A DNA stretch of 64,000 bases from a virus. Taxonomy: Duplodnaviria; Heunggongvirae; Uroviricota; Caudoviricetes. The notes below the pieces were generated by a model. It saw nothing but the letters and a program-made list of their open reading frames with translations, searched no databases and had not been told where the DNA came from. The stretch's first letter is position 1. Each line of letters begins with the position of its first letter. This document shows positions 22,526 through 39,888 of this stretch, in pieces. The position numbers and the translations under genes are program-made. The DNA lies in the IMG/VR virus record IMGVR_UViG_3300048588_000114, positions 15,309 through 79,308 of that record; one strand, written 5' to 3'.

Positions 22526-22527
22526 TT

Positions 22528-23460: not shown

Positions 23461-23580
23461 GAAAAAGAAAGCCCTGAAGAAGGCAAAGAAGCTAATTAGT
23501 AGAGTTACCGGGCCATGGGAAGGTCATGAAACTGAGCATAAACTCTTTAAGATACTAAAGAAACTAAGCAAAGCGATATA

Positions 23581-24543: not shown

Positions 24544-24613
24544 CGGCTTAGCTAAGGGCCACAAAATTAATCATGCTGAAATTCAACGTTTTACCCATTA
24601 AAGCAAAAATAAA

Positions 24614-24645
24614 TTTGGTTTCTGTGTAAAGATCGCTTAACTTAG
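24614..24645 (+). promoter_or_regulatory. Bacteroidetes-type promoter (TTTG, 20 nt spacer, TAACTTAG)
   Basis: AAATAAATTTGGTTTCTGTGTAAAGATCGCTTAACTTAGTGG upstream of ATG 24673; near-identical to the copy at 42223. Confidence 0.55.
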
Positions 24646-24672
24646 TGGTCATAAACTTAAAACAAGCAAATC

Positions 24673-25893
24673 ATGAAAACAACAATTACAACGATAATCT
24701 TAGTGTTATCAATCAGCCTACGGGCTCAAACCTGCTCAATTGGCGCTTCTCCCATGTTCCAGAACGTCAACTGTCAACTGTCCTCAATACAGGGAGTTAC
24801 CATTTCATCCACTCCAGCCAATGTCTCCTACACGATTTACAATCCAAGCGGGACTTCATTTACATCCGGCGCTAATACTACGGTATATCAGCCACTCGGA
24901 ACTGGCTCATATACAGTTAAGTTGCTGGATATAAATACTGGATGCACTAACACCGCTCAGTTCGCAGTTGCTTCTGCTGACGTTTATCCTACTTACACCC
25001 TATCGCCTTCGTCATTTGTATTAGGCTGTGCGCCTAAAGACGTGTTTATTCTGGGCATAACAACCACTACTTCATCAGGTGCTCCGACATATACGGTGCT
25101 TTCTCCGGGTAGCCCTACAGCGGTTCCGAACGCCCCACTCGGCATTCAGAATAATTATAACATCAACTCAACTGGAGTTTGGACAGTAATTGTTAGAGGT
25201 AACAATGGTTGCCAAACACGTGTGCCTATTACAGTGACTGAAAATACTATTGCTCCGACCTTTTCAGTGTCGGCGTTTATAAGCACCTTGACCTGCTCAC
25301 AGCCTACTACCTCTATTGCGGGGACTTCTTCAGCACAGGTAAATTATGTGTGGGCAGGTCAAACAACTACTGTTACAGGTGGAATGCTCACCGTATCCAC
25401 CAATACAGCTATCCCTTCTAATGGTCTGATTAACAGCTACACGCTCAATGTGATTGACGCTAATAACGGCTGTACTTCAAGCACTATCTTGCCTGTATAT
25501 CAGAATATAACCACTCCTACACTGAATATCGGGTCTACATATACGTTAGATTGTTGGTCTAACTCAGTATTGATTGACCCAATTAATCCTAACCTAAATT
25601 ACAATTTCAGCTGGACAGGAGGCATAAATACACCATCTTTATCCGTGACTGCTCCCGGAGGCTATACACTTCAAACTACTAATCCTACAAACGGATGCTC
25701 ATTGATGAGTTCGGTGACCGTGTACACCTGTCAGAGCGTAGGAATTGAAGAATATGCGCTTGATCCAAATGCGGTATTCTCCTATACAGACCTAATGGGC
25801 CGTCCGATGGATAAAGCCTTTAATGTCCCGATGATAGAGTGGGTAAAGGTGGGAGACAGAATATTGAGCCGTAAATTACTAATTCAAAACTAA
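24673..25893 (+). CDS. secreted SprB-repeat protein with short T9SS-type C-terminal tail
   Basis: Signal peptide MKTTITTIILVLSISLRAQ, then five ~80 aa Cys-framed repeats (e.g. YNFSWTGG...GGYTLQTTNPTNGCSLMSSVTV) resembling SprB repeats, ending in VKVGDRILSRKLLIQN. Confidence 0.6.
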   Translation: MKTTITTIILVLSISLRAQTCSIGASPMFQNVNCQLSSIQGVTISSTPANVSYTIYNPSGTSFTSGANTTVYQPLGTGSYTVKLLDINTGCTNTAQFAVASADVYPTYTLSPSSFVLGCAPKDVFILGITTTTSSGAPTYTVLSPGSPTAVPNAPLGIQNNYNINSTGVWTVIVRGNNGCQTRVPITVTENTIAPTFSVSAFISTLTCSQPTTSIAGTSSAQVNYVWAGQTTTVTGGMLTVSTNTAIPSNGLINSYTLNVIDANNGCTSSTILPVYQNITTPTLNIGSTYTLDCWSNSVLIDPINPNLNYNFSWTGGINTPSLSVTAPGGYTLQTTNPTNGCSLMSSVTVYTCQSVGIEEYALDPNAVFSYTDLMGRPMDKAFNVPMIEWVKVGDRILSRKLLIQN

Positions 25894-25896
25894 AAT

Positions 25897-26082
25897 ATGG
25901 GGAATATAACCGAAGATTTCCTGAATGAACCAGTATCGTTAGAGACCAAGCTAAAAGTCTCTAACGATATGGCATTTATGAGCCTAGTCACTGACTTAGG
26001 TTACCGGACAGGAATGTGGTCACCGGAGGAAGAAGAGACCTATAAAAAGTTGATGAAGAAGGAATCAAGGACACAGCGATGA
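25897..26082 (+). CDS. hypothetical small protein
   Basis: 61 aa ORF. Confidence 0.4.
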   Translation: MGNITEDFLNEPVSLETKLKVSNDMAFMSLVTDLGYRTGMWSPEEEETYKKLMKKESRTQR

Positions 26083-26175
26083 TGCCGGCAAACCATCACT
26101 GCGACATAGAGCGAATAATGGATTTGATCAAATATATGCGTCAGCGTTTAGATAAAACAGAAGAAAATTTGAAAA

Positions 26176-26460
26176 ATGGAAACAACGAGACCGAAGGACT
26201 TTGACCCACAGGCTATTGTAGACGCCCTCAACGGGACGGCTAATGATATTCAGGAGGCTCTGGATGACTATTATCCGGGAATGCTAGATACAGACATGTT
26301 ATCGACAGATCATGATATCATTGATAATCAGATTTTCAAGTGTTCCTGTTGTGGCTGGTGGTGTGAAATCCACGAAGCCGTAGAGAACGATGGTGGGAGC
26401 GAAGATATATGTACGGACTGTAAAGATGAAGGTGATGATGGAACCGACGAAGAAGAGTGA
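26176..26460 (+). CDS. highly acidic small Zn-ribbon protein (DNA-mimic-like candidate)
   Basis: 94 aa, about 30 percent D/E, with CSCCGWWC...CTDC cysteine pairs. Confidence 0.5.
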   Translation: METTRPKDFDPQAIVDALNGTANDIQEALDDYYPGMLDTDMLSTDHDIIDNQIFKCSCCGWWCEIHEAVENDGGSEDICTDCKDEGDDGTDEEE

Positions 26461-26782
26461 GGAAAAGCCTAAAATCCTATTAATTGATGACGATATTAGC
26501 CCTAATTTAAAGGCTTTAGCGGAATTACATTGTTATTTCAAGCAATTAGCTTTAGAATCAGTAGGCATACCAGCAGATAAGATTGACTTTAAGATTAGGA
26601 AAGTAGATGATGCGAATGTTGCGATAGACTGCTCATTTATGCCGCCTAAGCCAGTAAATAGGATTTTCATTAAGGGTTTTGTCTTTAATATCCACAAGGA
26701 ACTAAGAATCAAAGCAAAGCGACCTAAATGCACCCCTAACAGACGGCTTCGTGAAATTGTGAAGCAAATATATGGGTGCTAA
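26426..26782 (+). CDS. hypothetical protein
   Basis: ORF 26390-26782; an internal ATG (26426 or 26435) is the likely start, overlapping the acidic gene's end. Confidence 0.45.
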   Translation: MKVMMEPTKKSEEKPKILLIDDDISPNLKALAELHCYFKQLALESVGIPADKIDFKIRKVDDANVAIDCSFMPPKPVNRIFIKGFVFNIHKELRIKAKRPKCTPNRRLREIVKQIYGC

Positions 26783-26895
26783 TGCTTTCTTGTGGAGTGA
26801 GACAATAAAAGTATTGACCCGGAGGTAAAAGAGCAGGAGAAGCAAAATAAATTGGTGAATTCGACCAGTTATAGATCAACCTTAAACTAATTAAT

Positions 26896-27210
26896 ATGAC
26901 CGGAGATATCAAAACACAAATGCTGCCTCAAGAAATTGAGGATAAAATTAGAGCCGCTATGCCAGAATGGATAGAGCCGGGAACTTATGAAGAGGCTAAA
27001 GCCTATTTTGAATTAGGAGAGCCTAAGATGAAAATGGAAGTGCTCCAAGACGCAGAAAAGTTTAAAGGTGCTATCACTGACGTTAGGACTACTGAAGATC
27101 AATCTGTAATCATCTCAGTAGCTACTCCTCCAGGAAAAACAGAAAAAGATTGTTGGAATGCCCTATTTAGAGCAGGCATTGATGAAATGATTAGGAGACA
27201 AAACTCCTAA
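26896..27210 (+). CDS. hypothetical protein
   Basis: 104 aa ORF. Confidence 0.5.
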   Translation: MTGDIKTQMLPQEIEDKIRAAMPEWIEPGTYEEAKAYFELGEPKMKMEVLQDAEKFKGAITDVRTTEDQSVIISVATPPGKTEKDCWNALFRAGIDEMIRRQNS

Positions 27211-27239
27211 AACACAAGGAGTGCGAGCCTTGAACCTCC

Positions 27240-27395
27240 CAGTTTGAGCGCATTGTAAGCGGGGCAGGCAACCTTAGCAGTTCACTGAGCCCCGCCCTTA
27301 CTAAGAAGTCAGGTACAGCAGTGGGGGCTAACCCATGAGCGTTGTAGGATTGGTAGTTTTCCCAACCGATGACCAATGTGTGTGGCTGGCCTGAC
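27240..27395 (+). ncRNA. candidate structured non-coding element (GC-rich multi-hairpin in a 230 bp ORF-free gap)
   Basis: Nested stems AGTCAGG...CCTGACT and GCGGGGC...GCCCCGC with TGGG..CCCA and TTGG..CCAA inner stems, followed by a TTTCTTTATT T-run. No credible ORF. Confidence 0.25.
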
Positions 27396-27440
27396 TTTCT
27401 TTATTATTAGACAGTTAAGAAAGTAACTAAATGATGAACT

Positions 27441-27650
27441 ATGTTGGTTACTATACTCAAAGACGGCAGAACGGCCAAGGCGCTAACCTCCGGCAAAGTT
27501 TTTATAATTCAAGGACTTCTAATACAGACAAAACGCCAATTAGACCCAGTGTTTTACTCAATGGAAGACAGATTGACTCAACTAATTTGTAGCCCCGGTA
27601 CTATACACAAAGCAACAGCATTATCAAACCGCAAAATAAATATCATATGA
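27441..27650 (+). CDS. hypothetical small protein
   Basis: 69 aa ORF. Confidence 0.35.
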   Translation: MLVTILKDGRTAKALTSGKVFIIQGLLIQTKRQLDPVFYSMEDRLTQLICSPGTIHKATALSNRKINII

Positions 27651-28252
27651 CACCTGAAAAATTAGCCGAATTAAAGGCTCAAACCATCGCTTTCTACAAG
27701 CGCAAGCCTGAAGAAGGCACTGGAGTATTCCGTCACGTAGGATTTGACGACAACGAAGACTTCCTGTTCAATAGTTTAACGTCCTTAGATAAGCCCTTTC
27801 CGATTCGTAAAGTAGATGTAGCTAAGAAATACGAAAAACTTGAATCATACAACTTAGGCTCTCTTGAGTTCGTTAAATGCCCACGTCTAATTGGTACACG
27901 ATTTGAAGATGAAGATCAATGTTGGAATGTCCTTCCTAATGGCGATAAGACTTGCTCAGGCTGTGGGTCATATCATCCTAAAGAGTGGATTGATTGGTTA
28001 GATAAAGCCACCGACCCTTCTACAGAAGACAGACTAACCACCACTGATAAGGGCTATAAGATGTATGTGGAGAAGCCCGGAGTAAGAAATGCTAGCGAAG
28101 GGGCTATTAAAGTCTATCTTCAACACGTCAAGCAGTATGCAGAAGAGCATAAACTCAACATTGAAGAACTTGATAAGAAAATTCATGCTGCTGCGATAGC
28201 TGGCAATACTAAATTTCAGGCAAAAATGAATAAGATGAGAGAAGGCGAATAA
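27647..28252 (+). CDS. hypothetical protein with CxxC-containing segment
   Basis: 201 aa; KTCSGCGSYHP. Confidence 0.55.
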   Translation: MTPEKLAELKAQTIAFYKRKPEEGTGVFRHVGFDDNEDFLFNSLTSLDKPFPIRKVDVAKKYEKLESYNLGSLEFVKCPRLIGTRFEDEDQCWNVLPNGDKTCSGCGSYHPKEWIDWLDKATDPSTEDRLTTTDKGYKMYVEKPGVRNASEGAIKVYLQHVKQYAEEHKLNIEELDKKIHAAAIAGNTKFQAKMNKMREGE

Positions 28253-28308
28253 TCAAAGTTATTGGATAAAAGACAATTTGTGTGCTGTCTTCCTCATGTT
28301 CCTGGAAG

Positions 28309-28366
28309 GCCCATCCTATAAGGCTCTATGTGCTCGTAGCTTTATTGGGATGGGCTTTTTCTTTTT
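28309..28366 (+). terminator. rho-independent terminator
   Basis: GCCCATCC ... GGATGGGC stem followed by TTTTTCTTTTT. Confidence 0.55.
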
Positions 28367-28384
28367 AGCTAATTCAGAGCTAAG
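28365..28384 (+). repeat. 15-mer motif TTAGCTAATTCAGAG, copy 3
   Basis: Immediately 3' of terminator; TAGCTAAG repeated again 12 nt downstream. Confidence 0.45.
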
Positions 28385-28433
28385 TGTAGCTAAGTGCTGT
28401 TGTAAAGCGACATTAATTCTAAACCGTACTAAA

Positions 28434-28943
28434 ATGAAAGAATCTGAAATTAAGGCTTATTTAGATAAGCAATTCGCAAGTGTTGGAGTATCTAAATTAG
28501 CAATCGAATTAGGCTTTAAGAAGCCATGTTTACCATGGAATGGTAGTCATTATAGGCCACTTTGGCAACAAATTATTGACTGGCTCAGGGAAGATCACAA
28601 CATCATTGTAGAGCCATCCTATGACTTTGCTGAAACACAAACTTACAATGTAGCTCTAATCCAGGAAGGCGATAGTCCAGTGTATCATGCCACTGATATA
28701 TTAGAGGAAAAAGACTACTATGAAGCCCGGCGTAGAGGGGTAGAGCAGGCTCTCCAGATGGTAAAGGATGGGACTATGGACTATCTACAATTTGAAGCGT
28801 GGTTTACCAGCGTTTTAGAATTATGGGCAGAGGCCGGGCTATATAATCGTATTGCGATAGATAAAGACAATGCGAGACTACATTACGATCTTGGAACTAC
28901 ACCTGAGCAGTATGTAAATCAAGCAAAAGAAGAATTCAAATAG
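28434..28943 (+). CDS. hypothetical protein
   Basis: ORF 28278-28943; the first 52 codons span terminator and motif, so ATG 28434 (MKESEIKAY) is the likely start. Confidence 0.55.
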   Translation: MKESEIKAYLDKQFASVGVSKLAIELGFKKPCLPWNGSHYRPLWQQIIDWLREDHNIIVEPSYDFAETQTYNVALIQEGDSPVYHATDILEEKDYYEARRRGVEQALQMVKDGTMDYLQFEAWFTSVLELWAEAGLYNRIAIDKDNARLHYDLGTTPEQYVNQAKEEFK

Positions 28944-28945
28944 TC

Positions 28946-29116
28946 ATGACTAAGAAAAGAAAGAAATCAATTAAGCGCTATGGCGGCTCATATAAGATTA
29001 AAGCTAAGAAACTTGAGAAGAATTTAGCCAAAGAAGAAGCTGAACTTAGGGAAGAGTTGGCAAAATTAGACGAAGTCAAGAGACAAGTTGATCAGATGAT
29101 TAAAATAGCGCACTAA
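28946..29116 (+). CDS. small basic coiled-coil protein (56 aa)
   Basis: MTKKRKKSIKRYGG...; below ORF-track cutoff, read manually. Confidence 0.3.
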   Translation: MTKKRKKSIKRYGGSYKIKAKKLEKNLAKEEAELREELAKLDEVKRQVDQMIKIAH

Positions 29117-29134
29117 ACAGCTAAAAGGTCTAAT

Positions 29135-30028
29135 ATGAGCAATGACGAATATCAACACCAAAACACCTTTAAGAATATGAAAAGAGCTATTGTAATACAA
29201 GGCGGGGGTAGTTACGGAGCATACACTGCTGGCCGTATCTGTCGCCGAAAACTCAATTATGACGCTGCCGTAGGTAGCTCAACAGGTGCGCTAATTGCGC
29301 CTTTCGCTCTCTTAGGACAATATAGTGTTCTAGAAACCGGATACACAACCATTGGAAATAAAGAGATTTATTCAAGAACTCCATTCTGGGGTGACGGAAT
29401 ACCTAAGGTTTATTTGGCTCTTTGGTCTTGGATTAGGCAGAAAAAGGGCATCACTGATTCAAAACCGCTCCGCAAACTAATCGGGCAACTTTACACTCAA
29501 AAGATGCATGAATCCATCCCAGCACTAGGAAAGAAGCTATATGTGACTGGTTGTAATTTAAACTCCAATGTAACACCATCAAAATACTATGATTCGGCGG
29601 CATATACTTGGGAACAGTACTGTGATCTAATCTGGGCCTCAACGCTGGTTCCCGGACTACTTGAGCCCTACCATTCAGATTTACCCATCTTCAAAGGTAT
29701 AGATATGGTAGATGGTGGAACAACTGAGAATGTTGGAATGCGTGTTATAACTAATAAGAATTATGACTTCGTAGATATTTACCTTCATAATACTATCAAA
29801 TACGGCATGAAAGAGGAGGGGAAGAACTGGATTCACAACCTCATCCGGGCTTTAATCATTCAGCGAGAAGAAGTCATAAATGATGATTTGTATAGTAATT
29901 TAGATGGGATTAATCATAAAATACACTACCTACCTAAACCTTTGGAAGGGGCTGGGGCTATGGATTTTCAACCAAAAGTGATGCGTAAATGGTTTGATCA
30001 AGGCTTCCACGCTAATGTGGATTCTTAG
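29135..30028 (+). CDS. patatin-like phospholipase
   Basis: Oxyanion-hole GGGSYGAYTAG, nucleophile elbow G-S-S-T-G (GxSxG), and the catalytic Asp motif DGG in VDGGTTENVG. Confidence 0.8.
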   Translation: MSNDEYQHQNTFKNMKRAIVIQGGGSYGAYTAGRICRRKLNYDAAVGSSTGALIAPFALLGQYSVLETGYTTIGNKEIYSRTPFWGDGIPKVYLALWSWIRQKKGITDSKPLRKLIGQLYTQKMHESIPALGKKLYVTGCNLNSNVTPSKYYDSAAYTWEQYCDLIWASTLVPGLLEPYHSDLPIFKGIDMVDGGTTENVGMRVITNKNYDFVDIYLHNTIKYGMKEEGKNWIHNLIRALIIQREEVINDDLYSNLDGINHKIHYLPKPLEGAGAMDFQPKVMRKWFDQGFHANVDS

Positions 30029-30272
30029 TAGACTTATTGTGACGCCTACGGGTAGCTTGTTGAATAAGATTATCAATGCGCTCCTGTAGAGCCGCCTTGT
30101 CTTCACGAAGTTCATTGATTTGTCTTTCGTAGAGTTCAATTAGACGGTCATCTTTCTTGGAGGCGTTTTTATTCCGCTCAGTAAGGTAATTCCAGATAGC
30201 TTGACGCTTGAAAATACCTATAACAGCTAAGAAAATTGATCCAATAGTGGTGTATATTTGTGTGTCGCTCAT
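30012..30272 (-). CDS. small single-TM plus coiled-coil protein (i-spanin-like topology), the only credible minus-strand gene
   Basis: MSDTQIYTTIGSIFLAVIGIF TM, then heptad-rich ELYERQINELREDKAALQERIDNLIQQA. Convergent with patatin gene, overlapping its 3' end. Confidence 0.4.
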   Translation of the reverse strand: MSDTQIYTTIGSIFLAVIGIFKRQAIWNYLTERNKNASKKDDRLIELYERQINELREDKAALQERIDNLIQQATRRRHNKSTKNPH

Positions 30273-30320
30273 AAAATTACGATAACTGAAAACACTAAAC
30301 AATTAAAAATAAACAATATC

Positions 30321-30803
30321 ATGAATTTAGAGAAAATCTATGTTAAATTAACATCTGCATCTAATAAGGGCAATGTTTACCTAAGCCCAGACATCAAGCC
30401 TCAGGCACTCGTAGAAAGTGTCTATAAATCAAGTTCTGAATCTGAAGGTGTCCCAGTGGTGTCTATATATTTTCCTGGTAATATGCATATGGTGACTGAA
30501 ACCATAGAGCAGATAGTTGAGCAATATGAGAAGAAGCGCACCAAAGCTGTGTCTAACTACTTTTCAAAAGATGTGTTTGGTGAGATTGAGGAAGGAGCCT
30601 ATAATATGTCTAGCAAAGGAACACGCCCTACCAAAACAATCATTGGTCAAACTAAATTTCAAGAGCTAATTGATGGAATTATACCCAAAGAAGAGCAGAC
30701 CGGACAGGAATATGAGCATATAAGTGGTGTGGCGTTAATCACTCGTTTTGGTGTTCTATTGCTCGAAGAATCTAAAGAGGCCACTGAACTAAAAGTAAGT
30801 TGA
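30321..30803 (+). CDS. hypothetical protein
   Basis: ORF 30258-30803; ATG 30321 (MNLEKIYVKL) is the likely start. Confidence 0.5.
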   Translation: MNLEKIYVKLTSASNKGNVYLSPDIKPQALVESVYKSSSESEGVPVVSIYFPGNMHMVTETIEQIVEQYEKKRTKAVSNYFSKDVFGEIEEGAYNMSSKGTRPTKTIIGQTKFQELIDGIIPKEEQTGQEYEHISGVALITRFGVLLLEESKEATELKVS

Positions 30804-30845
30804 TTCACAGTTATAAACAAAGAGAAGCCACTAAAGGCTAATATT

Positions 30846-31163
30846 ATGAAAAAATCAGTCCTTATCCTCTGTTGTGCGCTCCTATTAGGAGCCTGTAACA
30901 GCGTTGCGGCTGGCTATTCACGCGCCCCTGACCGGGACGTAGGCCAGAACTACGAAAGTGTAAGCGCACCTGCGCACGATGTATTTGTGATCAACGAACA
31001 GTACGGCCAGGAACTACCTACCGCCGTGGATTTCGGAGCAGCTGTAGAGATACCTGCGCCGGAGGAAACCACCGGATATGGAGTGACCGCCAATGCAAAA
31101 CCGATAAGCCCCGGATTAACCCGGAAAATCTACCTGCTGAATTGCTCCATTAGGCAGTGTTAG
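30846..31163 (+). CDS. lipoprotein
   Basis: MKKSVLILCCALLLGAC signal peptide with lipobox LLGAC; two C-terminal cysteines. Confidence 0.55.
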   Translation: MKKSVLILCCALLLGACNSVAAGYSRAPDRDVGQNYESVSAPAHDVFVINEQYGQELPTAVDFGAAVEIPAPEETTGYGVTANAKPISPGLTRKIYLLNCSIRQC

Positions 31164-31186
31164 TTTAATCACAAAAAGTTTAGTCA

Positions 31187-31220
31187 AACCCCCACCGCAA
31201 GTGGGGGTTTTTGATTTTTT
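31187..31220 (+). terminator. rho-independent terminator
   Basis: AAACCCCCAC-CGCAA-GTGGGGGTTT followed by TTGATTTTTTT. Confidence 0.7.
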
Positions 31221-31277
31221 TAGCCACCACAGTTCCCCAGAGTTATTGTGGATATAACCATAAAAACAAATAAAAAT

Positions 31278-32780
31278 ATGATTACAACAGCAATTACCAT
31301 CGGAGTACCAGCAGTATTGGCGCTCATCATCATTCTCTACGTCTTTACCCTGAGACGCATTGTGCCCACTAACGTAGTGCACATTGTACAAAGAGGAAAG
31401 AACACTGTATCCTACGGAGTAGGCAAGGGGGACAACGTTTACTACGCATTTCCAAGCTGGATGCCTGTTATAGGCGTAGTTGTGCGTGAACTTCCAGTGT
31501 CTAACTTTGGGATAGACCTACATGAATACAATGCCTACGACAAGGACAGGGTGCCTTTTGTAGTAGATATCAAGGCGTTCTTCCATATTTCTGACACTAA
31601 TAAGGCGGCAGAGAAGGTTGAATCCTACGAAGAACTGGAGAAGCACCTTGAGAACGTGGTTCAAGGTTCCGTTAGGTCTATCCTTGCGCAGTCCAAGTTA
31701 GAAGAAATCATGGAAGGACGTTCAGAATTTGGGGAAAAGTTTACGTCCAATGTTAAGAGTGACCTGCTTCAATGGGGAGTTGAGCCAATCAAAAACATCG
31801 AACTCATGGATGTCCGGGATGCTAAGGAATCTACGGTCATTAAACAGATTATGGCGAAACGGATGTCGGCAATTGATTCTGAATCACGCACGGAGATAGC
31901 TAAGAACAAGCAATCAGCGGAGCAGGCAGAATTAGCTTCCAAACAAGCCATCGCTGTAAGTGCTGCCGAAACCAACCTAAAAATAGGAGAAGCGCAAGCT
32001 CAATCTGACCAAGCTGTAGCTATTGCAAAGGCTGAAAGTGAGAAGAAAGCTGGTATCGCTAAGCAAGAATCCATTGCTGAGGTTGCCAAATCAGAGAAAG
32101 ACACTGCTGAGAAACAGATGGATGTAATTCGCACTAAACAGACTAAGCAGGCAGAGATTGACAAAGAAACGGCCATCATCGCATCAGAACAGGAAGCCCG
32201 TCAGATGGAGATTAAAGCAGAAGCAGCCAAGAAGCAGCTTGAAATCCAGACCAACGCTAACAAAATGAAAGTTGAGACCGATGCGGAAGCCCGGAGAATA
32301 GCCACCGAGAAGGACGCAGCAGCCCTGCTTATTAAACAGGAGAATGAAGCCAAAGGTAAGGCAGCAGTTGGTAAGGCAGAAGCATCCATCATTGAAGCCA
32401 AAGGTACAGCGGAAGCAGAGGCTAAGAAACTTTATGAATTAGCCAGTGTAACCGCTCAGACTACTCTCGCTAAGGATATTGGTGACAATAAGGAATACCA
32501 AACCTACATGATCGAACTGAGAAAGGTTGAAATGAATGAGAAAATAGGTGTTGCACAGGCTGAGAATCTCGCAGTAGCGATGAAAGATGCTGACCTGAAA
32601 GTTCTCGTTAATAGTGGGGACGTACATTCAGGCATTGGTAAGCTATCCGACCTTTTCACCTCTAAAGGTGCTTCTCAGCTAAACGGCCTAATTGAAGGCT
32701 TGGGACAAACTGAAGGAGGTCAGGCTATCGTAGACCTTTTAGATAAAATCGGTGTGAAATTACCAACTAAAGCTAAGTAA
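31278..32780 (+). CDS. flotillin-like SPFH/band-7 domain membrane protein
   Basis: N-terminal TM ITTAITIGVPAVLALIIILYVF, SPFH-like core (VVHIVQRGKNTV...), then a long Ala/Glu/Lys-rich coiled coil (AEAEAKK) typical of flotillins. Confidence 0.75.
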   Translation: MITTAITIGVPAVLALIIILYVFTLRRIVPTNVVHIVQRGKNTVSYGVGKGDNVYYAFPSWMPVIGVVVRELPVSNFGIDLHEYNAYDKDRVPFVVDIKAFFHISDTNKAAEKVESYEELEKHLENVVQGSVRSILAQSKLEEIMEGRSEFGEKFTSNVKSDLLQWGVEPIKNIELMDVRDAKESTVIKQIMAKRMSAIDSESRTEIAKNKQSAEQAELASKQAIAVSAAETNLKIGEAQAQSDQAVAIAKAESEKKAGIAKQESIAEVAKSEKDTAEKQMDVIRTKQTKQAEIDKETAIIASEQEARQMEIKAEAAKKQLEIQTNANKMKVETDAEARRIATEKDAAALLIKQENEAKGKAAVGKAEASIIEAKGTAEAEAKKLYELASVTAQTTLAKDIGDNKEYQTYMIELRKVEMNEKIGVAQAENLAVAMKDADLKVLVNSGDVHSGIGKLSDLFTSKGASQLNGLIEGLGQTEGGQAIVDLLDKIGVKLPTKAK

Positions 32781-32885
32781 ACATGAAACTCAAAGCATTT
32801 ATCTTCGTTTCAGCTTTGGTTCTCATCGGGTGCGCCTTTACTATCGGATATGTAATTTGCCACTAACCCACCAAAGCGATGTGAG

Positions 32886-32920
32886 TTCCCCCACTAAAAA
32901 TGGGGGAATTTGCTTTTATT
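32886..32920 (+). terminator. rho-independent terminator
   Basis: TCCCCCA-CTAAAAA-TGGGGGA followed by ATTTGCTTTTATT. Confidence 0.6.
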
Positions 32921-32936
32921 CAAAGTTTATAAAGAT

Positions 32937-33167
32937 ATGGAGAAAATTAGCTATACCCTTGAAAGTCTTAAAAAGCCTTATTTTTGGCTGTCAATATTTG
33001 CCGCAATACTTTTACTGGCTCTGGTATTTAACGGGCAGGATTTTGACGATTTCAGCTATTTTTCGGCTATTATTCTCTTGTCTCTCTTTGTTATCGTAAT
33101 GCTCCGTGAAAACAACACTGCTATCAGGGTGCTCAAGTATAAATCTGGTAAACGTTTAACACTATGA
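32937..33167 (+). CDS. small two-TM membrane protein
   Basis: ORF 32910-33167 with two hydrophobic helices. The overlapping alternative-frame ORF 32830-33099 is rejected. Confidence 0.45.
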   Translation: MEKISYTLESLKKPYFWLSIFAAILLLALVFNGQDFDDFSYFSAIILLSLFVIVMLRENNTAIRVLKYKSGKRLTL

Positions 33168-33454
33168 GTAGCAGCAAAGGCGGGCATTCGGCCAAAGATC
33201 AAGATGAAGAAGCCTACAAAAAGTTCATGATTGACTTCGAAGGAGACAGTATGGACTATCGTTCAATAGTAGATATTGAACAAGGGCATAGAGCCTCAGA
33301 CAAATTTGAAGAAGGCGTAGAGTATTTTATTAGGATTATTAGGACTGTATATCCCGGCGAAAAGGTCTACACTTTCCAGACAACTGTAGAGAGAGACAAG
33401 AAACTCCAGAAACTCAGAAACAAAATGCAAATGATAAATACTATATTTCTCTAA
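33164..33454 (+). CDS. hypothetical protein
   Basis: 96 aa, ATGA overlap. Confidence 0.45.
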   Translation: MSSSKGGHSAKDQDEEAYKKFMIDFEGDSMDYRSIVDIEQGHRASDKFEEGVEYFIRIIRTVYPGEKVYTFQTTVERDKKLQKLRNKMQMINTIFL

Positions 33455-33873
33455 TGAAAATGAATCGAAACACCGTCCCGACCAATCAGCTTAGGCTACA
33501 TATGCCTAAGAATATGGATTATTATAATGAAATCTTTAACACTCCCAAGCCAGAAATACCTATTGAGCGAGAGTTTAGAGCAATTAAAAATCCAAAAGGC
33601 TGGTGGGTTTATAGTAATGAGCCTTGTTATGCTGAGATAGGCTCAAGGCTTCAATGCAAAGAAGACAAAGCAATCAAAGTCACCGCTGATTATGAGAACC
33701 TTGCTGAGCTAAGAAAAGACAAGAGATTTGAGCTAATTACTGAGCGGTTCATTAGTGATGAGTTAGTTATTGGCTCTTGTCCAGTGGATATTGAACATAA
33801 CAGACCATTCATAGGCTTAGACTGGGTAGATCAAAAGCATCATGAATGTGTAGTATTTCTTAGACACATATGA
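33454..33873 (+). CDS. hypothetical protein
   Basis: 139 aa ORF. Confidence 0.5.
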   Translation: MKMNRNTVPTNQLRLHMPKNMDYYNEIFNTPKPEIPIEREFRAIKNPKGWWVYSNEPCYAEIGSRLQCKEDKAIKVTADYENLAELRKDKRFELITERFISDELVIGSCPVDIEHNRPFIGLDWVDQKHHECVVFLRHI

Positions 33874-34085
33874 GCGGCTTTCAATCAGTTCCTATTAAAG
33901 GGAAAGAATATAGAATGAAATCTGGTAAGCATGAGGGCAAATCATTAGGAGAATTATTAGAAATTAATCCCGGTTACATTGTCTTCCTTCATGAAAAGAA
34001 TCTATTAACAATACAATTTGACCTAATTGACGAGGCAAGAGCAGCAGTCAAACTTAGAAATGATCAAAAAGGGAGAAAAGCATAG
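33870..34085 (+). CDS. hypothetical small protein
   Basis: 71 aa ORF. Confidence 0.4.
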   Translation: MSGFQSVPIKGKEYRMKSGKHEGKSLGELLEINPGYIVFLHEKNLLTIQFDLIDEARAAVKLRNDQKGRKA

Positions 34086-34341
34086 TCATTTTAATGATGG
34101 TCGAAAGGTGTTCACGCCTAAGAATCGGACAGGAATAAAATTTAAAGGCTGGAAAGAAGTCAAATATTCTAAGATTTTAGAGGAATTCCCCTTATCAATA
34201 CATCTAAAACTTAGGAATAAGGAGGAAATAATTGTTCAAAAGAAACGCTCTGTAGTGTTAAAGAAGTTGAAGAAGGTCTATATTGAGCCCAGACACTACG
34301 AGAAAGACCACAAGAGATATGTTGAAATGGTCGCTGAATAG
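34060..34341 (+). CDS. hypothetical basic protein
   Basis: ORF 34027-34341; internal ATG 34060 is the likely start. Confidence 0.4.
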   Translation: MIKKGEKHSHFNDGRKVFTPKNRTGIKFKGWKEVKYSKILEEFPLSIHLKLRNKEEIIVQKKRSVVLKKLKKVYIEPRHYEKDHKRYVEMVAE

Positions 34342-34382
34342 GCTAATTCAAAGTTATTATCAACACAATAAAGACAATTTAA

Positions 34383-34637
34383 ATGGAAACTACTAAAGCA
34401 AAGCATAAAGTACTGGTTGTAAAAAAAGAAATTGATACAATGAACTGGAATAAAAGCCTTCCCGTGCCGCTGGTAGGGGGAGCAAAAGTTGTTGTATTAG
34501 ATGATCAGGCAGGTTTAATGGATCCAGAAAACTATATTAAGGTGAAGCATGGGCCGGGTCTAAAGACAATTTCTTCTTTCTCAAAAAATCATTTCTTAAC
34601 ACTATCAGGAAAGGAGTTCAGCAAATGCAAGGATTAA
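34383..34637 (+). CDS. hypothetical small protein
   Basis: 84 aa ORF. Confidence 0.4.
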   Translation: METTKAKHKVLVVKKEIDTMNWNKSLPVPLVGGAKVVVLDDQAGLMDPENYIKVKHGPGLKTISSFSKNHFLTLSGKEFSKCKD

Positions 34638-34969
34638 TTCTTAGTACTGCCCCAATTTTTGCTTGGGGAATTGTCTTTTCGATAGCCGTAGCCATATTTA
34701 TATGCTGGTACTTTGTCACCCGTCCCGGTGTAGCTAGCGGATATGATTATGATAAAACACGTTGTATAGGTGAAATATTAAAAGACGGCAAAACACAGGT
34801 TTTAGAAGGCATTGACAACCCCAGTAAATTCAAGGCATTTTTGATTGATCTTGAGTTCATCCATCCGGGATTAGGCCGTAGGGTCTTATATGTTCCCCCT
34901 CACGATGACTGTAATGCCTATACGGTTAAATTGATGGAGGGTAAATACCAGTATCATTCAGAGTTATAG
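34625..34969 (+). CDS. membrane-anchored hypothetical protein
   Basis: N-terminal TM LILSTAPIFAWGIVFSIAVAIFICWYFV. Confidence 0.45.
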   Translation: MQGLILSTAPIFAWGIVFSIAVAIFICWYFVTRPGVASGYDYDKTRCIGEILKDGKTQVLEGIDNPSKFKAFLIDLEFIHPGLGRRVLYVPPHDDCNAYTVKLMEGKYQYHSEL

Positions 34970-35035
34970 GCAATTGTATAGCGGTTCTTGTGGATTTTGC
35001 TGGCTTTGTGAGATTTGTTAGCAAGATTAGATTAG

Positions 35036-35066
35036 GCAGAGACAACGTTCTCTGCTTTTTCTTTTA
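35036..35066 (+). terminator. rho-independent terminator
   Basis: GCAGAGA-CAACGT-TCTCTGC followed by TTTTTCTTTT. Confidence 0.65.
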
Positions 35067-35096
35067 CTAAGGTTACTAACGTTTTAGTTAAAAGAT

Positions 35097-35774
35097 ATGT
35101 CAAAAAATGTTTTAGTAGTATTCGACACGGAAACCGGAGGTCTCAAGCCCAAAGAAAACCCTATAATGGAGATTGCATTGGTGGCTTTAGATATGAAGAC
35201 ACTTGATGAAGTTGGCCGTTGGGAAACATTAGTCAAGCCCTATAATGGACTTAAATATGATCAGGCCGCATTAGATATACACGGAATATCAATATCAGAA
35301 GCAACCAACAAGGGTGTGTCCTTGGAAGAAATGGTTGCAACCACCATCAAATTTTACAAGCAATTCACGCCTAAAGGTGGCCGGGGCGGCGGTAGACCAA
35401 TTCTCTCAGGGCATAACCTGCCTTTTGATAATGGAATGCTTAAAGAGGCTTTTTCACTGGCTGGATACAATCTCTTTGACTTTGTATTGTCTAATGGAGA
35501 AGAAATTAGCGTATTTGATACCTTGCCAATATCTAAGTTTGTCTGGCCTTCAGAAGATAAACACACATTAGGTGAATGCTGTAAAAGAGCGGGCATGGGT
35601 GACTTTACAGCCCACAGAGCCATGCCGGATGTGATTGCTTCTTGCGATCTTATTAGATTCTTTAGGAGTTTAACTGGCGGGAAGGCATCAGCTTCTGTTA
35701 AGAAAGAAGTAGAGGGCGGCTCAAAAGGCCGGGAACTAATAAAGACTAATAGAAAAGTCAAATTTCAATTCTGA
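35097..35774 (+). CDS. DnaQ-like 3'-5' exonuclease (DEDDh family)
   Basis: Exo I VVFDTETGG, Exo II GHNLPFDNGML and Exo III HRAMPDVIASCDL are present. Confidence 0.8.
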   Translation: MSKNVLVVFDTETGGLKPKENPIMEIALVALDMKTLDEVGRWETLVKPYNGLKYDQAALDIHGISISEATNKGVSLEEMVATTIKFYKQFTPKGGRGGGRPILSGHNLPFDNGMLKEAFSLAGYNLFDFVLSNGEEISVFDTLPISKFVWPSEDKHTLGECCKRAGMGDFTAHRAMPDVIASCDLIRFFRSLTGGKASASVKKEVEGGSKGRELIKTNRKVKFQF

Positions 35775-36340
35775 TGCACATAACAGCCTATACAGACGGT
35801 AGTTGTAATAATCGAAGCCCTGAAAGAATGGGTGGCTTTGCCGCTATCCTCCCATCAGCAATTGATTATGAGGGTTTGATTCTAATAGGTGGGGAAGCAG
35901 GTTCTTCATCTGCTCGTATGGAGTTAGCCGCCGTCTGTGCAGTAGTTCAGCATTGTTATAAATACAATGGTGTAGAGTTAACTATCTATTCTGACGCTGA
36001 ATATATTGTAAAGTCTTTTAAATTAGGTTGGGTATTTGACTGGATGAAGGCGGGCTTTCCCAATACTAAGAATCTCGACATATGGAAAGACATTCTTAGA
36101 GGAATACAGAGCCGTCACATATCATCATTTCAAATACACCATGTTAAGGGACATTCCGGAGTATGGCTTAATGAAGTTGCTGATAAATGGGCAGGTTGGG
36201 CATCTTGGAATATGAAAGAACTCAATAGAAACACTAAAAAGACTACATTTATTTCCAAAATACAAGAAGGTGATCTACGAATTCACAAAGATAAAGTTGG
36301 GCAAGATGCCCTTAATAGAGTTTTACACTTGGAGCGATAA
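35774..36340 (+). CDS. ribonuclease H (RNase HI-like)
   Basis: YTDGSC...GGFAAIL, ELAAV, IYSDAEYIV and HHVKGHSGVWLNEVADKWA match the RNase H D-E-D-D active-site pattern. Confidence 0.8.
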   Translation: MHITAYTDGSCNNRSPERMGGFAAILPSAIDYEGLILIGGEAGSSSARMELAAVCAVVQHCYKYNGVELTIYSDAEYIVKSFKLGWVFDWMKAGFPNTKNLDIWKDILRGIQSRHISSFQIHHVKGHSGVWLNEVADKWAGWASWNMKELNRNTKKTTFISKIQEGDLRIHKDKVGQDALNRVLHLER

Positions 36341-36536
36341 CAAACACGAAGTTATCATCCAGATTGGCAAGCACTCACATACATTTCAGACCGATGATGT
36401 AGTTGCTATACTAAGAAAATTTGACTGTATTGAAGAATTTGGAGGTAAAATAAGGTTAGATTTACTACAGCCTAAGCTATTACCATTTGTAAATGAATTA
36501 GTAAAATTAGATCAAAAAGCAACAATAATCAAATAA
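36306..36536 (+). CDS. hypothetical small protein
   Basis: ORF 36270-36536 overlapping the RNase H 3' end; internal ATG is the likely start. Confidence 0.35.
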   Translation: MPLIEFYTWSDNKHEVIIQIGKHSHTFQTDDVVAILRKFDCIEEFGGKIRLDLLQPKLLPFVNELVKLDQKATIIK

Positions 36537-36542
36537 AACCAT

Positions 36543-37220: not shown

Positions 37221-37221
37221 A

Positions 37222-38016: not shown

Positions 38017-38057
38017 ACAATAATTCAGCTATAATCCTGATAAGGTTAAGTAATGCT

Positions 38058-38090
38058 AAAAGGGTGGGGCTTAGGCTTCACCCTTTTTGT
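38058..38090 (+). terminator. rho-independent terminator
   Basis: GGGTG-GGGCTTAGGCTT-CACCC followed by TTTTTG. Confidence 0.55.
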
Positions 38091-38118
38091 TCATTGTTAT
38101 TTATCAAAAGTACTAATT

Positions 38119-39855: not shown

Positions 39856-39888
39856 ATCAGTTATAATATAGTTTTAAACATTGAAATA

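What the first reader, a model, noticed from the sequence alone, without database searches (positions are those of the whole stretch)
28946..32780. Membrane-directed accessory cassette: patatin-like phospholipase, antisense TM plus coiled-coil gene, lipoprotein and flotillin-like SPFH protein
Within 4 kb the phage encodes a patatin-like phospholipase with GGGxxG, GxSxG and the catalytic DGG Asp motif. A convergent minus-strand gene (the only credible one in 64 kb) has spanin-like TM plus coiled-coil topology and overlaps the patatin 3' end. A lipoprotein with a lipobox follows. Then comes a 500 aa flotillin-like protein with TM, SPFH core and AEA-repeat coiled coil, bracketed by strong terminators. 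Patatin-like lipases are effectors of CBASS and other defence systems, and flotillins scaffold membrane microdomains, but neither is a standard phage gene. The group could be an unconventional lysis, superinfection-exclusion or membrane-remodelling module, or a hijacked abortive-infection effector held in check by a partner.
Basis: partly seen in the sequence, partly recalled or inferred. Interest (0 to 1): 0.8.

Follow-up and report, generated by a model that had tools for sequence, protein, structure and literature searches.

The report
Mix-and-match membrane genes in a phage
A large phage of Bacteroidota-type bacteria carries an apparently active lipid-cutting enzyme (patatin) and a flotillin-like membrane scaffold close together, but related phages carry these genes in almost every other combination, so they are independent accessory genes and not one machine.

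Summary
A patatin-like phospholipase lies at 29135-30028. Its Gly-rich, GxSxG (Ser49) and DGG (Asp193) motifs are invariant in 20 relatives. A real antisense gene for a membrane-anchor plus coiled-coil protein lies at 30012-30272 and overlaps the patatin 3' end by 17 nt (dN/dS 0.07). An unmentioned 160-aa ORFan, a signal-peptide/lipobox protein and a 500-aa flotillin-like SPFH protein follow. The SPFH gene sits between two strong terminators that recur in relatives.

Four related contigs carry these genes in different combinations:
- L014 has the patatin CDS precisely replaced by a 66-aa ORF.
- L232 has SPFH only.
- L236 has patatin and the lipoprotein, but no SPFH and no antisense gene.
- L233 has patatin plus the convergent antisense gene.

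None of 82 phage-flotillin loci has a patatin within 10 kb. No other patatin locus has an SPFH gene.

The flotillin belongs to a stand-alone family found across large phages. The patatin belongs to a small clade seen only on phage-like contigs. The one recurrent pair, patatin with the convergent membrane/coiled-coil gene, resembles the proposed patatin lytic cassette of phage WO. All functions are inferred. These are new members of known kinds, of moderate interest.

The parts
28946..29116 (+). 56-aa basic, coiled-coil ORF upstream of the variable slot
   Evidence: Conserved in L014 (61% aa, dN/dS 0.18) and absent in L232. No significant family hit.
29116..29183 (+). Conserved start cassette: spacer plus the first 16 codons, MSNDEYQHQNTFKNMK. 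The same leader heads different ORF bodies in relatives.
   Evidence: 84% nt identity to L232 354-419, where it heads the homologue of the 160-aa ORF. Partly shared with L233 and L014.
29135..30028 (+). Patatin-like phospholipase, 297 aa. The native start may be Met15 at 29177. Soluble, with no signal peptide. Catalytic Ser49 and Asp193.
   Evidence: PF01734 E=3.4e-15. Motifs are invariant in 20 homologues. AF2 pLDDT 88.6. Foldseek matches CapE, CapV, PlpD and patatin and viral patatins. In L014 this CDS is precisely replaced by a 66-aa ORF.
30012..30272 (-). Antisense gene, 86 aa: short N-terminal membrane segment, coiled coil and basic C-terminus. Convergent with patatin and overlapping it by 17 nt.
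   Evidence: Called by JGI. Homologues exist in L014 (80% aa, dN/dS 0.07) and L233 (40% aa, E=3e-12, again convergent and overlapping a patatin). Only weak SieB and SLATT hits, all below cut-off.
30321..30803 (+).
   Evidence: Homologues occur only in L014 (58%) and L232 (37%, fused to the leader) among 5.8 billion and 1.84 billion proteins. dN/dS 0.13. The AF2 model is unusable (pLDDT 45.5).
30846..31163 (+). 105-aa envelope protein with a signal peptide and lipobox (LLGA|C17). Fast-evolving, with an invariant C-terminal NCSIxQ motif.
   Evidence: The sequence and a lipobox regex. Homologues in L014 (44% aa, dN/dS 0.53) and L236, with the cysteine at different positions. Absent in L232.
31186..31210 (+). 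Intrinsic terminator hairpin plus T-run upstream of the SPFH gene
   Evidence: 10-bp stem with 6 GC pairs. The stem is conserved in L014 and nearly so in L232, with different loops, and is followed by a conserved CCCA(G/A)AGTTAT spacer motif.
31278..32780 (+). Phage flotillin-like SPFH protein, 500 aa from the ATG (510 aa from the GTG at 31248). N-terminal membrane segment, cytoplasm-facing SPFH domain, long Ala/Glu/Lys coiled coil and a conserved C-terminal region.
   Evidence: Band_7 E=7.5e-16. NCBIfam FloT scores 62 bits against a cut-off of 700. PDB sequence hits to QmcA and stomatin. Homologues in 54 phage records and 77 IMG/VR loci. Alignment A2.
32783..32866 (+). 27-aa hydrophobic ORF (MKLKAFIFVSALVLIGC...), probably not a conserved gene
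   Evidence: Read from the sequence. Lies in a window-specific insertion absent from L014.
32881..32913 (+). Intrinsic terminator hairpin after the SPFH gene
   Evidence: 13-bp stem with 6 GC pairs plus a T-run. Conserved in L014 with a different loop.
32937..33167 (+). 76-aa protein with two membrane segments and a basic C-terminus (holin-like topology only)
   Evidence: Hydropathy. Conserved in L014 (58% aa; 61% by tblastn) and in L236. No family hit.

Best explanation
This stretch is a hypervariable accessory-gene zone in a large myophage that most likely infects Bacteroidota. It lies between early-type small genes and the DNA-metabolism and terminase genes. It is not one co-evolved module. 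Each gene is a separately gained and lost unit that acts on the host cell envelope.

(1) Patatin. It belongs to a small clade seen only on phage-like contigs. It is a compact, soluble Ser49/Asp193 acyl hydrolase. It sits in a swappable slot whose start cassette and stop context are shared with relatives that hold other ORFs there. Inferred mechanism: from the cytoplasm it hydrolyses host inner-membrane glycerophospholipids, and so helps to permeabilise or dismantle the membrane late in infection. It would be a dispensable lysis or host-killing accessory, as proposed for phage WO. Enzyme competence is supported by the sequence and the model. Substrate, timing and role are inferred.

(2) Antisense membrane/coiled-coil protein. 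It is a real, strongly constrained gene that partly travels with the patatin. It may tether or time the patatin, or act alone, for example in exclusion. This is inferred.

(3) SPFH protein. It belongs to a phage-wide, stand-alone flotillin family, and here it forms its own terminator-bounded transcription unit. Inferred mechanism: oligomeric cages facing the cytoplasm that organise or stabilise the host inner membrane during the long infections of large phages.

(4) Fast-evolving signal-peptide/lipobox protein. It is probably an envelope or receptor-level protein of the kind phages use for superinfection exclusion. This is inferred.
For: Phage identity and likely host:
- PHROG hits to helicase, terminase, portal, protease and major head protein.
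- The major head protein is 46% identical to those of Bacteroides phages DAC16-23 and 39% to a Chryseobacterium phage.
- Shine-Dalgarno-like motifs precede only 8 of 82 ORFs, and leaders are A-rich.

Mosaicism:
- L014 is collinear with the window at about 70% nt identity. The patatin CDS (window 29142-30018) is replaced there by a 66-aa ORF, with the ATGAGC start and GATTCTTAG end shared.
- L232 keeps the leader, a homologue of the 160-aa ORF, the terminator and SPFH (89% aa). It lacks the 56-aa ORF, patatin, the antisense gene and the lipoprotein.
- L236 has patatin, the lipoprotein homologue and the two-segment membrane ORF. It lacks the antisense gene, the 160-aa ORF and SPFH.
- L233 has patatin plus the convergent antisense gene, with different flanks.
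- HMM searches found no locus with both patatin and SPFH among 15 patatin and 82 SPFH loci with 10-kb flanks.
- No neighbour family is shared by more than 5 of 58 SPFH clusters.

Patatin:
- Catalytic motifs are invariant in the family, and the model is confident.
- There are about 19 close relatives (47-58% identity), all on phage-like metagenomic contigs.
- The nearest cellular relatives are 27-32% identical, in Chitinophagaceae, with no cyclase nearby.

SPFH:
- Terminators on both sides recur in relatives.
- 52 of 77 IMG/VR loci lie on contigs of at least 50 kb.

Antisense gene: dN/dS 0.07. Lipoprotein: dN/dS 0.53.

The WO analogy comes from PMC9203015.
Against: - No function was tested. Roles in lysis, exclusion or membrane scaffolding are inferred from family knowledge and context only.
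- The clustering of five or six envelope-directed genes within 4 kb could still reflect a loose functional theme. Patatin plus the antisense gene recurs once (L233), which argues for some coupling.
- Four of the five relatives are short contigs (1.6-4.3 kb, counting L003), so an 'absent' gene could lie elsewhere in those genomes.
- A patatin made from an early or middle gene block would risk killing the host too soon, so it may be regulated or may have a different substrate.
- No endolysin, holin or spanin was recognised in the ORFs scanned. The relation to the real lysis genes is therefore unknown.
Confidence: 0.7

Rival explanations
1. Patatin and the convergent membrane/coiled-coil gene form a two-gene membrane-lytic or killing pair, like the proposed patatin plus 'holin-like' cassette of phage WO. 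The small protein would tether, gate or time the lipase at the inner membrane. Alternatively, its antisense transcription would keep patatin expression down until late in infection.
For: - The pair recurs in L233 after much divergence (patatin 58%, partner 40%, E=3e-12). It keeps the same convergent, overlapping layout although the flanking genes differ.
- The small protein meets all four descriptive 'holin-like' criteria used for WO: one N-terminal membrane segment, a C-terminal coiled coil, fewer than 150 aa and a highly charged C-terminus (sequence).
- In L235 a patatin homologue lies two genes after an Amidase_2 endolysin.
Against: - L236 has patatin without the partner, and L014 has the partner without patatin.
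- A profile of the partner finds nothing in the other patatin loci, which are about 50% identical to the window patatin.
- The WO cassette itself is only a hypothesis.
- No endolysin was found near the window's copy.
Confidence: 0.2
2. The patatin is a captured CBASS-type abortive-infection effector (CapV/CapE-like). The phage would use it as a decoy, a filament poison or a ligand-activated killer, held in check by a neighbouring gene.
For: - The best PDB fold matches are CapE and CapV, at E 2e-12 to 7e-11 and TM 0.56-0.65, and these proteins are of similar size.
- The best PDB sequence hit is CapE, E=2.2e-7, covering the N-terminal motifs only.
- PADLOC phospholipase effector model: E=2.6e-5, 21.7 bits.
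Against: - Identity is only 14-16%. PlpD and plant patatin score almost as well, and giant-virus patatins score better.
- No CD-NTase or other defence gene was detected among the neighbours.
- The nearest cellular relatives are Chitinophagaceae patatins in housekeeping contexts.
- An invariant catalytic dyad argues against a pure decoy or poison.
- There is no conserved partner gene.
Confidence: 0.04
3. The region is a cryptic lysis cluster. The antisense membrane/coiled-coil protein would be an i-spanin, the lipoprotein an o-spanin, the two-segment 76-aa protein a holin, and the 160-aa ORFan or the patatin the lytic enzyme.
For: - The topologies fit superficially.
- The membrane/coiled-coil gene and the lipoprotein are both present in the window and L014, and both absent in L232.
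- The two-segment ORF has a holin-like size and a charged C-terminus.
- The endolysin context of L235.
Against: - The candidate spanin genes lie on opposite strands and are separated by another gene.
- The K/R residues after the membrane segment predict a cytoplasmic coiled coil. This is an inference from the positive-inside rule.
- L236 has the lipoprotein without the membrane/coiled-coil gene. In L233 the membrane/coiled-coil gene is followed by an unrelated secreted protein.
- The lipobox cysteine is not positionally conserved.
- No muralytic domain was detected in the 160-aa ORF, and its model failed.
Confidence: 0.06

Closest known systems
Patatin-based putative lytic cassette of Wolbachia phage WO (patatin-like phospholipase A2, small 'holin-like' protein and ankyrin protein; PMC9203015)
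   Same: A phage-encoded patatin lies next to a small protein with one N-terminal membrane segment, a C-terminal coiled coil and a charged tail. In both cases the lipase is proposed, not shown, to act on host membranes.
   Different: - There is no ankyrin gene here and the genes are not beside the tail module.
- The partner is on the opposite strand and overlaps the patatin 3' end.
- The pairing is found in only 2 of about 13 patatin contexts examined.
- The host has peptidoglycan, so the patatin cannot be the sole lytic enzyme.
- Sequence homology to the WO proteins was not tested. The window patatin found no tblastn match in the phage collection at E<=1e-5.
CBASS effectors CapV and CapE (cyclic-nucleotide-activated patatin phospholipases; PDB 9ion, 9ioq, 8zr9)
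   Same: They are the best solved-structure matches. They share the size (about 300-340 aa), the single-domain patatin fold and the Ser-Asp dyad.
   Different: - Identity is 14-16%.
- There is no CD-NTase operon.
- The gene is encoded by a phage, not by a defence island.
- Nucleotide activation could not be tested here.
Viral patatin-like phospholipases of giant viruses, nudiviruses and ascoviruses, plus one RssA-like esterase from an uncultured Caudovirales phage (BFVD)
   Same: Same fold, with better scores than the PDB matches (E 1e-16 to 1e-13, TM up to 0.72). This shows that viruses encode patatins repeatedly.
   Different: Most are from viruses of eukaryotes. Identity is 14-21%. None of their functions applies directly to a phage that infects bacteria.
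Bacterial flotillins FloT, FloA and YqiK, and other SPFH proteins (QmcA, stomatin, HflK/C)
   Same: N-terminal membrane anchor, Band_7/SPFH domain, then a long Ala/Glu-rich coiled coil. Partial FloT profile match (E=5e-17). PDB sequence hits to QmcA and stomatin.
   Different: - The score is far below the FloT equivalog cut-off (62 against 700 bits).
- There is no NfeD-type partner gene.
- The protein belongs to a distinct family shared at 38-64% identity among large phages of Vibrio, Ralstonia, Xanthomonas, Brevundimonas and Erwinia and among uncultured phages.
Phage flotillin or SPFH genes already annotated in phage genomes (Vibrio Thalassavirus gp119, Xanthomonas phages BUDD and X1, Brevundimonas Kabachok, and the SPFH ORFs of the T4-like phages 44RR, Aeh1 and RB43)
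   Same: A direct homologue at 39-60% identity. Like them, it is a stand-alone gene in an accessory region. Papers record the presence of such genes but state that the role is unclear (PMC13239085, PMC13384950, PMC1524935).
   Different: This is a Bacteroidota-type phage lineage. Here the gene lies next to other envelope-directed accessory genes, including a patatin. That combination was seen nowhere else.
Lipoproteins that block superinfection (T5 Llp, Cor of phi80 and N15)
   Same: A small phage-encoded signal-peptide/lipobox protein in an accessory region, evolving fast (dN/dS 0.53). The comparison rests on my own knowledge of those systems.
   Different: No sequence similarity was shown. 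The lipobox cysteine is not conserved in position. No receptor is known.

Membership tests
Patatin-like phospholipase (PF01734) | Profile match above the curated cut-off | tested here: met
   57.2 bits against a cut-off of 27.7, E=3.4e-15, covering profile positions 1-187 of 191.
Patatin-like phospholipase (PF01734) | Gly-rich oxyanion motif, GxSxG nucleophile and DG[GA] catalytic Asp, conserved in relatives | tested here: met
   G23-G25, S26, G28, G47, S49, G51 and D193-G195 are invariant in 20 sequences. The usual Arg/Lys in the Gly-rich motif is replaced by Tyr or Phe.
Patatin-like phospholipase (PF01734) | Patatin alpha/beta fold | tested here: met
   AF2 pLDDT 88.6. Foldseek probability 1.00 to CapE, CapV, PlpD, patatin and iPLA2 and to viral patatins.
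Patatin-like phospholipase (PF01734) | Acyl-hydrolase activity on lipids | not testable with these tools
   Needs an enzyme assay with S49A and D193A controls.
CBASS effector CapV/CapE | Encoded in an operon with a CD-NTase cyclase | tested here: not met
   No cyclase or other defence protein among the neighbours by Pfam, PADLOC or NCBIfam. None next to the two nearest cellular relatives examined.
CBASS effector CapV/CapE | Membership in a defence-effector sequence model | tested here: inconclusive
   PADLOC phospholipase effector PDLC00758, E=2.6e-5, 21.7 bits. PDB profile hit to CapE over the N-terminal motifs only.
CBASS effector CapV/CapE | Activation by a cyclic nucleotide, with filament formation | not testable with these tools
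   Needs biochemistry.
Phage WO-type patatin lytic cassette | Patatin next to a small protein with an N-terminal membrane segment, a coiled coil and a charged C-terminus (under 150 aa) | tested here: met
   The window (86 aa) and L233 (107 aa) both have it, convergent with and overlapping the patatin.
Phage WO-type patatin lytic cassette | The pairing is conserved wherever the patatin occurs | tested here: not met
   Absent from L004, L007, L010, L013, L096, L234, L235, L236 and L237. L014 has the small gene without patatin.
Phage WO-type patatin lytic cassette | Ankyrin-repeat partner and a position beside the tail module | tested here: not met
   No ankyrin hit. The region lies between small accessory genes and the exonuclease, RNase H, MazG and terminase genes.
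Flotillin / SPFH superfamily | Band_7/SPFH domain | tested here: met
   PF01145, 59.1 bits against a cut-off of 23.6.
Flotillin / SPFH superfamily | N-terminal membrane anchor followed by a long coiled-coil (flotillin) region | tested here: met
   Hydrophobic residues 1-31. Ala/Glu/Lys-rich region at about residues 200-400, aligned across seven phage homologues. The FloT profile aligns to residues 79-394.
Flotillin / SPFH superfamily | Equivalog of bacterial FloT | tested here: not met
   62 bits against a curated cut-off of 700.
Flotillin / SPFH superfamily | Adjacent NfeD-type partner gene, as is typical of bacterial SPFH operons (from my own knowledge) | tested here: not met
   No NfeD hit among the neighbours. 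No neighbour family is shared by more than 5 of 58 SPFH clusters.
Two-component spanin | o-spanin: a small outer-membrane lipoprotein with a lipobox | tested here: inconclusive
   A lipobox, LLGA|C17, is present in the window. The cysteine position differs in L014 and is doubtful in L236.
Two-component spanin | i-spanin: N-in, C-out membrane protein with a periplasmic coiled coil | tested here: not met
   The N-terminus is acidic (MSDTQ) and K/R residues follow the membrane segment, which predicts a cytoplasmic coiled coil. This is inferred from the sequence.
Two-component spanin | Genes adjacent, overlapping or embedded on the same strand, usually with a holin and an endolysin | tested here: not met
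   The genes are on opposite strands with a 160-aa gene between them. No endolysin was recognised in the ORFs scanned.

The most novel reading that the evidence does not exclude
The phage flotillin may be a general counter-measure of large phages. On this reading it is a cytoplasm-facing SPFH cage that stabilises or partitions the host inner membrane, so that a long infection survives membrane-disrupting abortive-infection effectors, premature holin firing, or the phage's own lipase.

The family is a stand-alone gene, terminator-bounded in this lineage, present in at least 58 sequence clusters of phage contigs, many of 50-455 kb and one 635-kb phage genome. It occurs in phages of Proteobacteria and in this Bacteroidota-type lineage. 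The window phage is the only case seen that also carries a patatin, so it would be a natural test case.
Probability: 0.1. Interest if true: 0.75.

Novelty: new member of a known kind. Interest (0 to 1): 0.35.

Why it matters
Two points are worth keeping.

- A compact patatin clade with an intact catalytic dyad appears only on phage-like contigs. Even close relatives gain and lose it. This gives a tractable case for asking what a lipid hydrolase does for a lytic phage, and whether the lysis idea proposed for phage WO applies more widely.
- The flotillin-like gene belongs to a conserved, widespread family in large phages. Its role is stated to be unclear in the literature (PMC13239085), and a major comparative survey of jumbo phages does not mention it (PMC7824862). 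Cultured Vibrio, Xanthomonas and Brevundimonas phages carry homologues, so knock-outs are feasible.

The specific claim of a four-gene membrane cassette should not be carried forward.

Tried and rejected
- Megablast of 28000-34000 against 50,697 phage records found nothing.
- tblastn of the patatin against the same records found nothing at 1e-5.
- Single-sequence scans of IMG/VR for patatin and SPFH found nothing. Alignment-based scans were needed.
- PHROGs gave no hit at E<0.001 for any ORF in the reported region. PADLOC gave only a weak phospholipase hit.
- The weak hits of the antisense protein to SieB (E=0.019), SLATT_4 (E=0.009) and ZapB are all far below cut-off. I treat them as membrane-segment and coiled-coil noise.
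- The 160-aa ORF: the AF2 model was unusable (pLDDT 45.5). The search of 1.84 billion representatives added one true homologue and one low-complexity false hit. The idea that it is a cryptic endolysin is therefore untested.
- Consensus sigma-70 promoter hits were no more frequent than in shuffled sequence (19 against 17.6). The Bacteroidota TAnnTTTG motif is not enriched on the coding strand (23 against 20.6). No promoters are assigned.
- I looked for a conserved partner of the phage flotillin by clustering neighbours within 2.5 kb, and found none. A lipobox ORF directly upstream recurs in a few unrelated loci, but it is not homologous to the window's.
- I looked for lysis genes with PHROGs in 40 further ORFs of the window and recognised none. 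This is inconclusive, because the genome extends beyond the window.

Full report
WHAT THE WINDOW IS

All substantial ORFs lie on the plus strand. PHROG profiles identify a helicase, large terminase, portal, prohead protease and major head protein. Downstream of the region lie an exonuclease, RNase H and a MazG-like pyrophosphatase. The major head protein is 46% identical to those of Bacteroides phages DAC16-23 and SJC03 (167-179 kb) and 39% to a Chryseobacterium phage. Shine-Dalgarno-like motifs precede only 8 of 82 ORFs, and leaders are A-rich. The window therefore comes from a large myophage that most likely infects Bacteroidota. The patatin protein occurs on a JGI contig of 110 kb.

CHECK OF THE OBSERVATION

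The patatin ORF (29135-30028) matches PF01734 at E=3.4e-15.
- A search of 5.8 billion proteins returned about 19 close relatives at 47-58% identity, then a sharp drop to 28% or less.
- In the 20-sequence alignment, the motifs GGGSxG (23-28), GxSxG (Ser49) and DGG (Asp193) and an ASxxxP block are invariant.
- The AlphaFold model is confident (pLDDT 88.6).
- Its best PDB matches are the CBASS lipases CapE and CapV (E about 1e-11 to 1e-12, TM 0.56-0.65, 14-16% identity), followed closely by PlpD and plant patatin.
- In the viral structure set, giant-virus patatins and one uncultured Caudovirales esterase score better.

The minus-strand ORF is best read as 30012-30272, 86 aa from an ATG.
- It fills the only sizeable plus-strand gap in the region.
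- JGI called it independently.
- It overlaps the patatin stop by 17 nt.
- It is 80% identical in a relative, with pN 0.12 against pS 0.69.
- It is a real gene, and the only convincing antisense gene in the window.

The remaining features are as follows.
- A 105-aa protein with a signal peptide and a lipobox (30846-31163).
- A strong terminator (31186-31210).
- A 500-aa SPFH protein (31278-32780; Band_7 E=7.5e-16; partial FloT profile match).
- A second strong terminator (32881-32913).
- A 76-aa protein with two membrane segments (32937-33167).

THE SYNTENY TEST

Searching with the antisense protein and the 160-aa ORF, and looking up the patatin homologues, produced four informative contigs from relatives of this phage.

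Gene content of the window and the four relatives ("?" means the contig ends before that position):

| Locus | Patatin | Antisense gene | 160-aa ORF | Lipoprotein | SPFH | Two-segment ORF |
|---|---|---|---|---|---|---|
| Window | yes | yes | yes | yes | yes | yes |
| L014 (34-kb contig) | replaced by a 66-aa acidic ORF | yes | yes | yes | yes | yes |
| L232 | no | no | yes, fused to the leader | no | yes (89% aa) | ? |
| L233 | yes (58%) | yes (40%, E=3e-12) | ? | ? | ? | ? |
| L236 | yes (50%) | no | no | yes, frameshifted | no | yes |

- L014 is collinear with window positions 22,000-40,000 at about 70% nt identity. The patatin CDS (window 29142-30018) is exactly replaced by the 66-aa ORF. 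The ATGAGC start and the GATTCTTAG end are shared.
- L232 keeps the 16-codon leader MSNDEYQHQNTFKTMK, fused directly to the homologue of the 160-aa ORF. An unrelated 78-aa ORF, the terminator and SPFH follow. The 56-aa ORF, patatin, antisense gene and lipoprotein are all missing.
- L233 has the patatin with the antisense-gene homologue again convergent and overlapping. Its other neighbours differ.
- L236 has a homologue of the 66-aa acidic ORF, then the patatin, a lipoprotein homologue, a terminator and the two-segment ORF.

Every gene is therefore gained and lost on its own.

More broadly, profile HMMs of both families were run over 15 patatin loci and 82 SPFH loci with 10-kb flanks. Apart from the window, no locus held both. 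tblastn with all window ORFs found no other shared neighbour.

THE FLOTILLIN FAMILY

Homologues at 38-64% identity occur in 54 phage records. These include a 635-kb uncultured phage, T5-like Vibrio Thalassavirus, Ralstonia RP13 and jumbo phages of Xanthomonas, Brevundimonas and Erwinia. They also occur in 77 IMG/VR loci, 52 of them on contigs of at least 50 kb.

Across 58 clusters at 85% identity, no neighbour family is shared by more than five clusters. In the annotated phages the gene sits alone among hypothetical genes or tRNAs.

In the window lineage the upstream terminator stem and a spacer motif recur in three relatives, and the downstream terminator recurs in L014, all with different loops. 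This marks a discrete transcription unit.

K/R residues follow the membrane segment, which places the SPFH domain in the cytoplasm, as in bacterial flotillins. This is an inference. Papers note SPFH genes in phages but give no function (PMC13239085, PMC13384950, PMC1524935). A large comparative survey of jumbo phages does not mention them.

THE PATATIN CLADE

Close members lie on phage-like contigs of up to 452 kb, among small co-directional ORFs, RNA ligases, exonucleases and HNH genes. Only one close member is in IMG/VR, and there was no tblastn match at E<=1e-5 in 50,697 phage records.

In 185,579 species genomes the nearest relatives are 27-32% identical. They are mostly in Chitinophagaceae, in housekeeping contexts without cyclases. 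This argues against a recent capture of a CBASS effector.

Contexts vary. One copy lies inside a run of very large ORFs (L004). One split copy lies two genes after an Amidase_2 endolysin (L235).

HOW IT MOST LIKELY WORKS

Shown here:
- The patatin looks catalytically competent and is under selection.
- The antisense gene is real and constrained.
- The SPFH gene is an independent, widely shared unit.
- The genes assort independently.

Inferred:
- The soluble patatin attacks inner-membrane phospholipids from the cytoplasm. It would serve as a dispensable aid to late membrane breakdown or host killing.
- The antisense membrane/coiled-coil protein may tether or time the patatin. It meets the descriptive 'holin-like' criteria applied to the phage WO patatin cassette (PMC9203015).
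- The flotillin forms membrane-scaffold assemblies.
- The fast-evolving signal-peptide/lipobox protein (dN/dS 0.53) acts in the envelope, perhaps in superinfection exclusion.

A spanin reading is disfavoured. The two candidate genes are on opposite strands, another gene lies between them, the coiled coil is predicted to be cytoplasmic, and the two assort independently.

VERDICT

The four-gene cassette is not supported. A weaker two-gene pairing, patatin with the convergent membrane/coiled-coil gene, remains a minority hypothesis.

Both headline genes are new members of known kinds: viral or phage patatins, and phage SPFH/flotillin genes. The region is best described as a plastic accessory zone, complete with a shared start cassette that heads different ORFs in different relatives.

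Interest is moderate. The open question of most value is what the widespread phage flotillin does.

Noticed in passing
window 29116-29183; L232 354-419; L233 762-815; L014 10420-10500 (minus strand): A conserved spacer plus the first 16 codons (MSNDEYQHQNTFKNMK) heads three different ORF bodies in relatives: the patatin here, the homologue of the 160-aa ORF in L232, and a 97-aa membrane ORF in L233. Patatin homologues elsewhere start at the equivalent of Met15 (29177). It looks like a portable start cassette or a recombination hot spot.
   Followed up: partly
window 32783-32866: A 27-aa hydrophobic ORF (MKLKAFIFVSALVLIGCAFTIGYVICH) lies directly after the SPFH stop codon. It sits in an insertion that is absent from L014, so it may be a tiny membrane peptide or simply noise.
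   Followed up: partly
window 32937-33167: A 76-aa protein with two membrane segments and a basic C-terminus (holin-like topology). It is conserved in L014 and L236 and has no family hit.
   Followed up: partly
window 44679-45302, 48590-49264, 49261-49884, 49889-50872: Four ORFs each give weak hits to PHROG_800 ('terminase small subunit'), three of them in tandem. This may be an array of paralogues near the structural genes.
   Followed up: no
L040 5241-5750, L041 9406-9915, L043 8472-8981, L054 9476-9997, L038 103-579: A conserved lipoprotein of about 169 aa (..LAGC..QAQKAAEAANSIQYSENAEIDNIKRRL) lies directly upstream of the phage flotillin gene in L040, L041, L043 and L054 and about 1.1 kb upstream in L038. 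These IMG/VR phages are not close relatives of the window phage. The protein is not homologous to the window's lipoprotein. The background rate of lipobox ORFs was 0.6%.
   Followed up: partly
L235 637-2629: A patatin homologue (55% identity) is split into ORFs of 196 and 95 aa. It lies two genes downstream of an Amidase_2 endolysin. This is the only patatin context found next to a recognisable lysis enzyme.
   Followed up: partly
L004 4689-16361: In a 452-kb phage-like contig, the patatin homologue is embedded in a co-directional run of very large ORFs (772 aa, 874 aa with Laminin_G_3, 122 aa, 1106 aa and 714 aa). This hints at a structural or host-recognition context in that lineage.
   Followed up: no
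window 27191-27376 (minus strand) and 27203-27232: A second, weaker antisense candidate: a 61-aa ORF with a TTG start lies in the plus-strand gap 27211-27440, with two terminator-like hairpins on the minus strand. No antisense gene was called at the equivalent place in L014.
   Followed up: no
window, whole: Shine-Dalgarno-like motifs precede only 8 of 82 ORFs, and the 20 nt upstream of starts are 47% A against 34% overall. This fits Bacteroidota-type translation initiation.
   Followed up: yes
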